Under the pieces are notes generated by a model that saw only the letters and a list, made by a program, of their open reading frames with translations, was not told where the DNA came from and searched no databases. Positions 46,440 through 52,700 of a stretch of DNA of 64,000 nt are shown piece by piece; the stretch's first letter is position 1, and each line of letters opens with the position of its first letter. This stretch comes from the human T2T-CHM13v2.0 reference genome, Homo sapiens, in the NCBI GenBank assembly GCA_009914755.4, contig CP068257.2:5920001-5984000 (forward strand). Direction: 5' to 3'. The translations under genes and the position numbers were made by a program.

Positions 46440-49020
46440 CCATTCCATTTCATTCCATTACATTACATTACAATATATTCCACTGCTTACCATTCTATTC
46501 CACTACATTCCTTTCCAATCCACTACACTCCGCTTCATTCCACCCCGTTGCATTCCTCTCCATTCCCCTCCTCTGCATTCCATTCGATTTCATTTCATTC
46601 TGTTCTATTCCATTCCGTTCTATTGCATTCCATTCCACTCCATTCCACTCCACTCCACTCCAATTCATTCCACTCCACCGCACTCTCTTCAACTCCATTC
46701 CATTCCATTCCACTCCACTCCGTTCCATTTCATTCCACTCCTCTCCATTCCACTCTATTCCATTGCACTTCTCTGCACTCCATTCCATTCCACTCCATTC
46801 CATTCCAGTCCACTCCACTCCATTCTGCTTCAATCCACTTCATTCCAGTCCACTTCATTCGACTCGACTCGATTCCATTCCAAACAATTTCATTCCGATC
46901 TATAACATTCCACTCCACCCAATTCCATTCCATTCCGTTCCAGTACACTCCATTCCACTTCATTCCACTCCCACTCCATTCCATTCCAATCCAATCCATT
47001 AAATTCCATTCTGTTCCGTTCCGTTCCATTCCGTCCCATTCCGTTCCGTTCAATTCCATTCCATTCCACTACACTCTATTACATTCAGTTACACTAAATT
47101 TCATTCCATTCCATTCCACTCATTTCCATTCCATTCTTTTGCACTCCATTCCATCCCATTCCACTCCAATCCATTCCATTCCATTCCACTCAATTCCATT
47201 CCATTCCATTCCATTCTGTTGCATTTCAGTCCTTTCCATTCCATTCCACTGAATTCCATTCCATTCCACTCCACTCCATTCCATTTCATTCCACTCCACT
47301 CCATTCCACGCCATTCCACTCCATTCCATTAAATTCCAATTCTTTCAATTCCACTCTATTCCATTCAATTCATTTCCTCTCCACTGTACTCCATTCCATT
47401 CCACTCCATTCCATTTCACTCCATTCCATTCCTCTCCATTCGGTGTCATTCCTTTGCACTCCATTCCATTCCATTCCATTCCATTCCACTCCATTCTATC
47501 TCAATCCACTCCCCTCCTTTACTTTCCATTCCACTACATTCCGTTCCATTCGATTCCATTCCTCTCCACTACATTCCATACAATTCCACTCTGATCCATT
47601 CCATTCCATTCCATTCCACTCCACTCAATTCCATTCTATTCCACAACATTCCACTCTTTCCATTCCCTTCCACTGAATTCCATTCCATTCCACTCCACAC
47701 CATTCCATTCCATTCCACTCCACTCTATTCCACAGCATTCCATTCCATCCCATTCCATTCCATTCAATTCGATTCCATTCCATTCCATTCCAGTCCATTC
47801 TGCTCCAGTCCACTCCATTCCATTCCATTCCATTCCACTCCATTCTGTGCCATTCCATTCCACACTATTCCATCCCACTCTATTCCATTCCGTTCTATTC
47901 TGCTCCAGTACATTCCACTCCACTCCACTCCACTCCAATCCACTCCACTCCATTCCATTGCATTCCATTCCATTCCATTACATTCAATTCCATTTAACTT
48001 AACCACCCTCCACTCCATCCCCGCCATTCTATTCCATTCCATTCCATTTCATTCCACTCCACTAAATTCCATTCCACTCCATTCCATTCCATTCGAGTCC
48101 ATTCCATTCCATTCCAGTCCATTCCATTCGAATCCATTCTATTCTATTCCACTCCATTCCATTCCACTCCACTCCACTCAATTCCATTCCACTACATCGT
48201 ATTGCATTCTGTTCCATTCTGTTCGATTCCACTCCGTTCCTGTCCATTCCACTCCACTCCATTCCATTTATTTCCATTCCACTCTATTAAACTCTAATCT
48301 GTGCCATTCCATTCCAAGCCATTCTGTTCCAGTACACTTGACTCCATTCCATTCCAGTCCACTCAACTCCATTTCATTCCACTCCATTCCATTCCACTCC
48401 ACTCCACTCCATTCCAATCCAGTACATTCCATTCCATTCCGTTCCATGCTGTTGTATTCCATTCCACCTCACTCCACTCCACTCCACTTCATTCCACTCC
48501 TTCCCATGCCATTCCATTCCACTCGATTCCATTCTATTCCATTCCATTCCACTCCACTCCACTCCACTCCATTCCATTACACTCCATTCAATTTCACTCC
48601 ATTCCATTCCACTCCATTCCATGCCATTCCATTCAAACCTATTCCATTCCACTATATTCCATTCTGTTCCATTCTGGTCCATTCCTTTCCACTTTACTCC
48701 AATCCACTCCACTCTATTGCATTCCATTGCATTCCATTAAATTCCATTCCATTTCATTACATTCAAATCCATTAAAATCGGCCGCCCTCCACTCCACTCC
48801 ACTGCATTCCATTCCATTTCATTCCACTCCACTCCATTCCACTGCATCGCACTCAATTCCATTCCTCTCCATTCACCTCTTTTATATTACATTCCACTGC
48901 ATTCCATTCCAATCCATTTCATTCCATTGCACTCCACTCCATTTCTTTCCATTCCATTCCACTTCATTCCATTCCTTTCCATTCCACTCCATTCCATTCC
49001 ATTCCATTCCATTCCTTTTC
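46440..49020. repeat. Higher-order repeat unit copy 1 (~2.6 kb)
   Basis: Aligns to copy 2 at multiple anchors: 46,840~49,880; 47,100~50,150; 47,431~50,511; 47,968~51,058; 48,446~51,240; 48,770~51,572. Offsets range from 2.79 to 3.09 kb because of pentamer-multiple indels and the Alu. Confidence 0.7.
49009..49020. repeat. Alu target-site duplication, left copy (ccattccttttc)
   Basis: The identical 12-mer flanks the Alu on both sides. The poly-T run begins immediately after this copy. Confidence 0.8.
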
Positions 49021-49322
49021 TTTTTTTTTTTTTTTTTTTTTGAGACGGAGTCTTGCTCTGTCGCCCAGGCTGGAGTGCAGTGGCGCGATCTCGGCTCACT
49101 GCAAGCTCTGCCTCCCGCGTTCATGCCATTCTCCTGCCTCAGCCTCCCGAGTAGCTGGGACTACAGGCGCCTGCTACCACGCCCGGCTAATTTTTTGTAT
49201 TTTTAGTAGAAACGGGGTTTCACCGTGTTAGCCAGGATGGTCTCGATCTCCTGACCTCGTGATCCGCCCGCCTCGGCCTCCCAAAGTGCTGGGATTACAG
49301 GCGTGAGCCACCGCGCCTGGCC
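49021..49322 (-). mobile_element. Full-length AluY SINE (281-bp body at 49,042-49,322 plus 21-nt pure poly(A) tail seen as T21 at 49,021-49,041)
   Basis: The sequence 'gagacggagtcttgctctgtcgcccaggctggagtgcagtggcgcgatctcggctcactgcaagctc...gccattctcctgcctcagcctcccgagtagctgggactacagg...tgctgggattacaggcgtgagccaccgcgcctggcc' is the reverse complement of an Alu. AluY-diagnostic 'caagctc' and 'gccattctcc' are present (AluS would have caacctc / gcgattctcc). I count about 8-9 differences from the consensus as I recall it, mostly CpG->TpG/CpA. Confidence 0.95.
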
Positions 49323-49334
49323 CCATTCCTTTTC
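49323..49334. repeat. Alu target-site duplication, right copy (ccattccttttc)
   Basis: It immediately follows the Alu 5' end (ggcc on the + strand) and is identical to 49,009-49,020. Confidence 0.8.
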
Positions 49335-51962: not shown

Positions 51963-51976
51963 CCATTCCTTTTCAT
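51963..51976. other. Paralogous empty (pre-insertion) site of the AluY in the next higher-order-repeat copy
   Basis: Sequence at 51,931-52,060 reads 'ccattccattccttttcatttcattgtttccactcaatgacattcaattccactccattccattacaatccactcaacacc...'. It aligns to the left flank, a single copy of the 12-mer TSD sequence and the right flank of the Alu at 49,0xx/49,3xx. It carries no Alu. Confidence 0.75.
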
Positions 51977-52700
51977 TTCATTGTTTCCACTCAATGACAT
52001 TCAATTCCACTCCATTCCATTACAATCCACTCAACACCGCTACATTCCACTCCATTGCATTACACTCCACTCCATTCCATTCCATTTCACTCCACTCCCA
52101 TCCACTCCATTCCACTCCATTACATTCCGTAGCATTCCATTCAATTCCACTGTATTAAATTCAATTCCTTACCTTTCCACTCCCTTCCATTCCATTCCAT
52201 TCCACTCCATTGCATACTCCTCCATTCCCCTCCAATCCATTCCATTCCATTCCATTTCACTCCTATCCAATCCGTTACATTCCAATCCACTCCATTCCAT
52301 TCCATTCCATTCCACTCCACTCCTTTCCATTCCACTTCTCTCCATTCCATTCTCCTCCATTCCATTCCAGTCCACTCCACTCCATTCCACTCCAATACAT
52401 TCCATTCCATTCCGTTCCATGCCCTTGCATTCCATTCCACTTCACTACACTACACTCCGTTCCATTCCACTCTATTCTATGCCATTCCTTTCCCCTCCGT
52501 TCCATTCTATTCCATTCCATTACACTCCACTCCACTCCATTCCATTCAAATCCGCTCCTGTCCACTCCATTCCTTTCCACTCCATTGAATGCCATTCCAT
52601 TCCACTCCATTCCATTTAATTCCGTTCCATTCCATTCCACTCTAATCCATTCCACTCCACTCTATTGTATTCCATTCCATTCCATTAAATTCCTTTCCAT
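51963..52700. repeat. Higher-order repeat unit copy 3 (partial; diverges after ~52.5-52.7 kb)
   Basis: 51,963-52,440 is collinear with 49,323-49,770. The shared - strand ORF peptide '[31 protein letters not shown]' appears at 49,400-49,675 and 52,169-52,435. Confidence 0.65.

What the first reader, a model, noticed from the sequence alone, without database searches (positions are those of the whole stretch)
49009..51980. AluY insertion caught with both its filled site and a paralogous empty site inside a satellite higher-order repeat
The only non-satellite element in the window is a full-length AluY on the - strand with a 21-nt pure A tail and a 12-bp TSD (ccattccttttc). The next ~2.64-kb higher-order-repeat copy keeps the uninterrupted target: 51,955-51,980 reads '...ccattccattccttttcatttcatt...' with the same collinear flanks. 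This confirms the TSD assignment and shows the Alu inserted after the unit was amplified and has not been spread or erased by homogenisation. The target on the - strand is an A-rich GAAAAGGAATGG-type site, consistent with L1 endonuclease preference. It dates the insertion relative to array turnover.
Basis: seen in the sequence. Interest (0 to 1): 0.6.

Follow-up and report, generated by a model that had tools for sequence, protein, structure and literature searches.

The report
Ordinary AluY insertion in pentameric satellite
A complete Alu element of the AluY group jumped into an old, poorly homogenised stretch of (CATTC)n satellite DNA; the one diverged neighbouring duplicate of that stretch still shows the uninterrupted target, which is a correct but routine observation.

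Summary
The core observation holds. A full-length Alu lies on the minus strand: a 281-bp body at 49042-49322 and a pure A21 tail at 49021-49041. It is flanked by an exact 12-bp direct repeat, CCATTCCTTTTC, at 49009-49020 and 49323-49334. It is the only non-satellite sequence in the window. A paralogous site at 51963-51974 carries the 12-mer once, followed by about 550 bp of collinear right flank with 9.7% mismatches.

The framing is wrong. There is no 2.64-kb higher-order repeat. Distinctive markers of this unit occur exactly twice in 64 kb. The two copies (about 46776-49867 and 49817-52544) are a single old tandem duplication that differs at 8.6-11.7% of aligned bases. The rest of the window shows only scattered local duplications of other periods.

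The left flank is not simply collinear. Copy B carries about 150 extra bases between the true left paralogue and the target.

The Alu differs from an AluY consensus at 8 of 281 positions, 5 of them CpG transitions, and carries G148A, the Yc1 diagnostic. Insertion after the duplication is supported. Nothing can be said about homogenisation, because this segment shows almost none. This is a known, catalogued kind of event and of low interest.

The parts
49009..49020 (+). Target-site duplication, copy next to the A tail (the 3' TSD in Alu orientation): CCATTCCTTTTC, which reads GAAAAGGAATGG on the Alu strand.
   Evidence: It matches 49323-49334 exactly and cannot be extended on either side.
49021..49041 (-). 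Pure poly(A) tail of 21 nt, seen as T21 on the plus strand.
   Evidence: It is the only homopolymer of 10 or more bases in the window.
49042..49322 (-). Full-length Alu body of 281 bp. The right monomer is roughly 49042-49187, the A-rich linker roughly 49188-49206, and the left monomer 49207-49322. It belongs to the AluY group and carries G148A, the Yc1 diagnostic.
   Evidence: One search gives two Metazoa_SRP half-matches on the minus strand (E 1e-12 and 5e-12). One search gives 8 of 281 differences from an AluY consensus, against 13 for Ya5, 23 for Yb8, 16 for Sc, 19 for Sx and 38 for Jo. One search supports the 148 diagnostic.
49323..49334 (+). Target-site duplication, copy next to the Alu 5' end: CCATTCCTTTTC.
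51963..51974 (+). Paralogous unoccupied target. The 12-mer is present once and is followed directly by the right-flank paralogue.
46776..49867 (+). Copy A of a two-copy tandem duplication of satellite sequence. It carries the Alu and is about 2778 bp without the insertion.
   Evidence: One search gives 8.6-11.7% mismatches to copy B, against 24-29% for unrelated satellite pieces.
49817..52544 (+). Copy B of the tandem duplication, with the empty site.
51806..51962 (+). A block of about 150 bp of satellite found only in copy B, between the true left-flank paralogue and the target site. It is an indel relative to copy A.
   Evidence: One search shows the offset changing from 2804 to 2954 on the Alu-excised copy. 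Searches also support it.

Best explanation
An AluY-group SINE carrying the Yc1-type G148A was inserted by the LINE-1 machinery into a (CATTC)n-derived satellite, of the HSat3/HSat2 class.

Inferred mechanism, from established knowledge of target-primed reverse transcription:
- The L1 endonuclease nicked the C/T-rich plus strand after ...CCTTTTC, at one of the sparse T4 tracts of this satellite.
- The freed T-rich 3' end primed on the Alu RNA poly(A).
- Second-strand cleavage 12 bp away produced the 12-bp duplication.

Shown here: the insertion happened in one of two copies of an already old local tandem duplication of about 2.7-3.1 kb. The other copy preserves the pre-integration site. The host segment is a diverged, essentially non-homogenised part of the array, about 9 kb from a junction with a second satellite subtype. 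This is the kind of satellite where transposable elements are known to persist.
For: - Anatomy: a 281-bp body, an A21 tail and a perfect 12-bp TSD at the exact element ends.
- Dimeric 7SL-derived structure on the minus strand.
- The closest typed consensus is AluY: 8 differences, 5 of them CpG transitions and 3 non-CpG (C112T, G148A, C205G). G148A is the Yc1 diagnostic according to PMC4607524.
- T runs of 4 or more are about 12 times commoner on the plus strand than A runs (125 against 10). This fits the minus orientation of the element.
- Empty paralogue: the exact 20-mer of target plus flank occurs only at 49323 and 51963. The right flank has 504 matches and 54 mismatches over about 560 aligned bases.
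- The A/B paralogy is real: 8.6-11.7% mismatches against 24-29% background.
- Order of events: the Alu's non-CpG divergence of 0.9-1.3% is far below the roughly 5% per lineage between copies A and B.
- Literature: TEs are counted per megabase inside HSat1-3 in T2T-CHM13 and are enriched in divergent rather than homogeneous satellite (bioRxiv 10.1101/2021.07.12.452052). AluY and Alu fragments are associated with HSat3 without local homogenisation (bioRxiv 10.1101/2022.12.01.518724).
Against: - The nick site (plus strand 5'-TTTTC/AT-3', or AT|GAAAAG on the Alu strand) departs from the canonical TTTT/AA. It ends in a C that cannot pair with poly(A).
Their numbering agrees with positions 64, 144, 145, 148 and 236/237 as described in PMC4607524.
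- The left flank differs from the paralogue by an indel of about 150 bp right beside the site. The 'empty site' is therefore not a simple Alu-minus copy.
- The species and chromosome could not be established.
Confidence: 0.93

Rival explanations
1. The Alu was already present in the ancestral unit before the tandem duplication. It was later removed precisely from copy B by recombination between the two 12-bp TSD copies.
For: Precise removal between short identical repeats is a known but rare process in primates (own knowledge, not tested here). Copy B carries exactly one 12-mer, which is what precise removal would leave.
Against: The Alu's non-CpG divergence from consensus is 0.9-1.3%. That is 4-5 times lower than the roughly 5% per lineage accumulated by the flanking copies since the duplication. 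An Alu older than the duplication should be about as decayed as its flanks. The pure A21 tail also argues against great age.
Confidence: 0.03
2. This is a real higher-order (nested tandem) repeat of about 2.64 kb in which the Alu marks one unit.
For: Local offsets of 2640-3109 link 46.8-49.9 kb to 49.8-52.5 kb. A minor 2640-2660 peak appears in the k-mer interval spectrum.
Against: Only two copies exist. Unit-specific 29-mers and 20-mers occur exactly twice in 64 kb. No third copy lies upstream of 46.8 kb or downstream of 52.5 kb. Identity is 88-91% with several indels of 150-315 bp, not HOR-like. Other parts of the window show unrelated periods of about 1.0, 1.4-1.6, 6.3 and 6.8 kb.
Confidence: 0.03
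3. The Alu is an assembly or chimeric-read artefact, or an endonuclease-independent capture at a break, rather than a TPRT insertion.
For: Satellite regions are prone to misassembly. The nick site is non-canonical. An indel of about 150 bp lies beside the site.
Against: The element is full-length, with an exact 12-bp TSD at its precise termini and a pure A tail. That is the TPRT signature. Artefactual junctions and endonuclease-independent insertions typically lack TSDs.
Confidence: 0.02

Closest known systems
AluY / AluYc1 SINE insertions generated by LINE-1 target-primed reverse transcription
   Same: Dimeric 7SL-derived body of 281 bp, A-rich linker, poly(A) tail, a 12-bp TSD and a purine-rich target. 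It matches AluY at the Ya5 and Yb8 diagnostic positions and carries G148A, the defining Yc1 change.
   Different: It carries 7 further changes (5 CpG, C112T, C205G). The nick site AT|GAAAAG is degenerate. Subfamily membership rests on one diagnostic base, which can also arise by parallel mutation.
Transposable elements embedded in human satellites HSat1-3, as catalogued in T2T-CHM13 and T2T-Y (Altemose et al.; Rhie et al.)
   Same: An Alu inside (CATTC)n-derived satellite, in a diverged and non-homogenised segment. The papers report TEs per megabase in HSat arrays, AluY associated with HSat3, and no local homogenisation of HSat3-Alu fragments.
   Different: Those papers stress Alu fragments intermingled with HSat3 and TE fragments that are part of repeating units. 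Here the Alu is a single, intact, TSD-flanked insertion that is not part of any repeating unit.
HSat1B (DYZ2) composite repeat containing an ancient AluY subunit
   Same: An AluY sequence lies within a kilobase-scale tandem unit on a satellite background.
   Different: In DYZ2 the Alu is about 20% diverged, part of every ~2.5-kb unit and amplified with it. Here the Alu is 2.85% diverged, present in one of two copies and never amplified. The host satellite is CATTC-type, not AT-rich.

Membership tests
Alu SINE (dimeric, 7SL-derived) | Two 7SL Alu-domain-derived monomers in tandem, joined by an A-rich linker, about 280 bp in total. | tested here: met
   One search gives Metazoa_SRP hits at 49207-49321 and 49040-49187 on the minus strand, each spanning model ends 1-299 with the S domain skipped. 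The linker TACTAAAAATACAAAAAATTAGCC is visible.
Alu SINE (dimeric, 7SL-derived) | A 3' poly(A) tail and flanking target-site duplication. | tested here: met
   One search shows an A21 tail and an exact 12-bp repeat at both element ends.
AluY subfamily | A closer match to the AluY consensus than to AluS or AluJ consensuses across the diagnostic positions. | tested here: met
   One search gives 8 differences to AluY, against 16 (Sc), 19 (Sx) and 38 (Jo). Their numbering was cross-checked against positions quoted in PMC4607524. This was not a Dfam or RepeatMasker call.
AluYc1 | A single diagnostic G-to-A change at position 148 relative to AluY. | tested here: met
   One search shows G148A. The definition comes from PMC4607524. 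A one-base diagnostic cannot exclude parallel mutation in a plain AluY.
AluYa5 / AluYb8 (young human subfamilies) | The Ya5 changes at positions 89, 96, 145, 174 and 237, or the Yb8 7-bp duplication and its substitutions. | tested here: not met
   One search gives 13 differences to Ya5 and 23 to Yb8. None of the Ya5 diagnostic bases is present, and there is no 7-bp duplication.
L1 endonuclease-dependent TPRT insertion | A TSD of roughly 7-20 bp plus a poly(A) tail at the junction. | tested here: met
L1 endonuclease-dependent TPRT insertion | First-strand nick at a TTTT/AA-like site (TT|AAAA on the element strand). | tested here: inconclusive
   The site reads AT|GAAAAGGAA on the Alu strand. 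The purine run is kept, but 2 of 6 consensus positions differ and the primer would end in C.
Satellite higher-order / nested tandem repeat | Many head-to-tail copies of a multi-monomer unit at one period, with high identity between copies. | tested here: not met
   There are only two copies with 8.6-11.7% mismatches plus indels. Unit markers occur only twice in 64 kb. There is no dominant period.
Human satellite 3 / 2 ((CATTC)n-derived) | Derivation from a CATTC pentamer repeat. | tested here: met
   Offset-5 identity is 0.72. About 78% of 5-mers are within one mismatch of a CATTC rotation.
Human satellite 3 / 2 ((CATTC)n-derived) | Assignment to a named HSat2/3 subfamily and chromosome (Altemose 24-mer classification). 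| not testable with these tools
   No human reference or subfamily k-mer set was available. The classic satellite III 10-mer core (CAACCCGA / TCGGGTTG) and the HSat2-type GATGAT motif are both absent.

The most novel reading that the evidence does not exclude
The filled/empty paralogue pair could serve as an internal clock. Suppose the Alu (about 1% non-CpG divergence) and the A/B copies (about 5% per lineage) evolve at similar rates. Then this satellite segment has sat unhomogenised for several times the age of the Alu, plausibly tens of millions of years. During that time it received only rare short conversion patches, such as the 399-bp, 99.5%-identical tract at 11401-11799 and 31631-32029. 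That would make it a 'fossil' flank of an HSat array evolving by short-tract conversion rather than by unequal crossing-over.
Probability: 0.3. Interest if true: 0.25.

Novelty: already known. Interest (0 to 1): 0.1.

Why it matters
It matters little. TSD-flanked Alu insertions in diverged satellite are expected and are already catalogued in telomere-to-telomere assemblies, and using embedded TEs to date satellite layers is established practice. The useful outcome is corrective. This window is not a higher-order-repeat array. It is an old, heterogeneous (CATTC)n segment with sporadic local duplications, so the Alu says nothing about the dynamics of homogenisation. It gives only a relative order: duplication first, then Alu.

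Tried and rejected
- Ungapped autocorrelation up to 30 kb showed only the 5-bp period. It is uninformative for long periods because of indels.
- The first chunk self-BLAST timed out. It was rerun with stricter scoring.
- The Rfam scan of the whole window at gathering threshold found nothing. Only the E-value scan showed the SRP and Alu signatures.
- I searched for other individuals' copies through human contamination in public collections. The filled-junction 35-mer and 29-mer and a copy-A-specific right-flank 32-mer gave zero hits in genome contigs and metagenome contigs. Presence/absence in other genomes, species and chromosome therefore could not be addressed.
- I looked for other non-satellite elements. 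The bins with the lowest satellite-likeness (2651, 19301, 21551, 23701) are just degenerate satellite.
- I looked for third copies of the duplicated unit and found none.
- The literature available here did not give the AluYc2 diagnostic positions. Whether G151A has subfamily meaning is left open.

Full report
**What is at the coordinates**

The window is a strongly strand-biased pentameric satellite, with C at 40% and G at 3.5%. Identity at offset 5 is 0.72, and about 78% of 5-mers lie within one mismatch of a rotation of CATTC.

At 49009-49334 the plus strand reads as follows:
- CCATTCCTTTTC at 49009-49020
- T21 at 49021-49041
- 281 bp ending ...GTGAGCCACCGCGCCTGGCC at 49042-49322
- CCATTCCTTTTC at 49323-49334

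The 12-bp repeat is exact and cannot be extended on either side. T21 is the only homopolymer of 10 or more bases in the window.

**Is it an Alu, and which one?**

Rfam at gathering thresholds reports nothing. An E-value scan of 48900-49450 gives two minus-strand matches to Metazoa_SRP, at 49207-49321 (E 1.1e-12) and 49040-49187 (E 5.4e-12). Each joins the 5' and 3' ends of the model and skips the S domain. The scan also matches Rfam miRNA families (mir-1268, mir-3135, mir-619) that I recall as Alu-derived. This is independent evidence for a complete dimeric Alu on the minus strand.

They are not from a database. Their numbering agrees with positions 64, 144, 145, 148 and 236/237 as described in PMC4607524.

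| Consensus | Differences |
|---|---|
| AluY | 8 of 281 (2.85%) |
| Ya5 | 13 |
| Sc | 16 |
| Sx | 19 |
| Yb8 | 23 |
| Jo | 38 |

Five of the eight differences from AluY are CpG transitions. The other three are C112T, G148A and C205G. G148A is the single diagnostic change of AluYc1 (PMC4607524). The element is therefore AluY-group and Yc1-like, not Ya5 or Yb8.

CpG divergence is 5/50 and non-CpG divergence is 2-3/231. I used the commonly quoted rates of about 0.15% per Myr for non-CpG sites (own knowledge) and 6-10 times that for CpG sites (PMC4607524). These give an age of roughly 6-11 Myr, with wide Poisson error. It is an upper bound if the source element already differed from the consensus. 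This is not a very young insertion.

**Is the TSD more than chance?**

The 12-mer occurs 8 times in 64 kb. Across the satellite, 12-mers match at offset 314 at 0.46% of positions, mostly in pure CATTC runs. Here the informative CTTTTC part sits exactly at both element termini. Together with the empty paralogue, the TSD assignment is secure.

**The 'paralogous empty site'**

The site is real.
- The exact 20-mer CCATTCCTTTTCATTTCATT occurs only at 49323 and 51963.
- The right flank aligns for about 560 bases with 504 matches, 54 mismatches and two indels.
- It includes distinctive non-consensus strings such as TTCAATTCCACTGTATTAAATTCAATTCC.

The left side is less clean. Next to the target only about 50 bp of (CATTC)n matches, which carries little information. 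The true left paralogue is 48383-49013 against 51177-51817, at 90% identity. Copy B has about 150 extra bases (about 51806-51962) between that paralogue and the target. The indel lies to the left of the TSD and does not affect the TSD call. It does mean that the flanks are not simply collinear.

**There is no higher-order repeat**

- With the Alu excised, the region resolves into two head-to-tail copies: A at about 46776-49867 and B at about 49817-52544. Block identities are 83-90% and the offsets drift from 3041 to 3109, then 2794, then 2640.
- Substitution divergence between the copies is 8.6-11.7%, against 24-29% for unrelated pieces of the same satellite. The paralogy is real but old.
- There is no third copy on either side. 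The unit-specific 29-mer occurs exactly twice, even with three mismatches allowed.
- Elsewhere the window holds unrelated old local duplications with periods of about 1.0, 1.4-1.6, 6.3 and 6.8 kb at 85-92% identity.
- A k-mer interval spectrum has no dominant period. Its top peak, at 20.2 kb, comes from one 399-bp patch.

**Mechanism**

On the Alu strand the pre-integration site reads ...GAAATGAAAT|GAAAAGGAATGG|AATGG... The first-strand nick was therefore on the window's plus strand, after CCTTTTC (5'-TTTTC/AT-3'). This is inferred from the TPRT model.

The site is a degenerate version of TTTT/AA. The purine run is preserved, but the primer ends in a C.

T tracts of 4 or more are sparse, at about 2 per kb, and lie almost entirely on the plus strand (125 T runs against 10 A runs). 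This explains both the choice of site and the minus orientation of the element.

**Order of events**

The Alu is absent from copy B, where a single intact target remains. Its non-CpG divergence of about 1% compares with about 5% per lineage between copies A and B. Both facts place the insertion well after the duplication.

The rival, an ancestral Alu precisely excised from copy B, is disfavoured by the same clock argument.

Because the segment is not being homogenised, the Alu's failure to spread or be erased is uninformative about array turnover.

**Comparison with what is known**

- T2T analyses already count TEs per megabase inside HSat1-3. They note that TEs are nearly absent from homogeneous arrays and enriched in divergent satellite (bioRxiv 10.1101/2021.07.12.452052).
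- The T2T-Y paper reports HSat3 arrays associated with Alu, including AluY, without local homogenisation (bioRxiv 10.1101/2022.12.01.518724).
- The same centromere paper compares the ages of embedded LINEs with those of the alpha-satellite families that hold them.

This finding is one ordinary instance of that pattern.

**Limits**

No human or primate reference, RepeatMasker or Dfam was available. Attempts to find the locus in public microbial and metagenome collections, through human contamination, returned nothing. Species, chromosome, HSat subfamily and population presence/absence remain untested.

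Noticed in passing
window 11401-11799 and 31631-32029: A 399-bp block is 397/399 identical between two sites 20,230 bp apart. Its left edge is abrupt, and identity drops to about 80% on the right. All other paralogy in the window is only 83-92%. It looks like a recent short conversion or patch-transfer tract in an otherwise unhomogenised satellite.
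   Followed up: partly
window ~58300 (58301-64000 compared with 1-58300): The satellite subtype changes on the same strand. G rises from 3.0% to 8.0%. CACTCCATTCC falls from 8.7 to 0.18 per kb. ATTCGATTCC rises from 0.34 to 4.0 per kb, and ATTCGAGTCC rises from 0.05 to 2.8 per kb. This is a junction between two (CATTC)n-derived subfamilies, about 9 kb from the Alu.
   Followed up: partly
window 6400-19200; 26400-29500; 38500-45800; 3000-4800: There are several independent old local tandem duplications with different periods: about 6.8 kb, 1.4-1.6 kb, 6.3 kb and 1.0 kb, at 85-92% identity. The array grew by sporadic segmental duplications, not by amplification of one unit.
   Followed up: no
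window 43400-44750: This stretch of fairly pure, short-period repeat (offsets of 50-140 bp at about 90% identity) acts as the best BLAST partner for many unrelated chunks across the window. It is the part of the window closest to the satellite consensus.
   Followed up: no
window 49042-49322: All five CpG transitions in the Alu are G-to-A on the Alu sense strand, which is C-to-T on the C-rich plus strand of the satellite. With five events this is not significant (two-sided p about 0.06).
   Followed up: no
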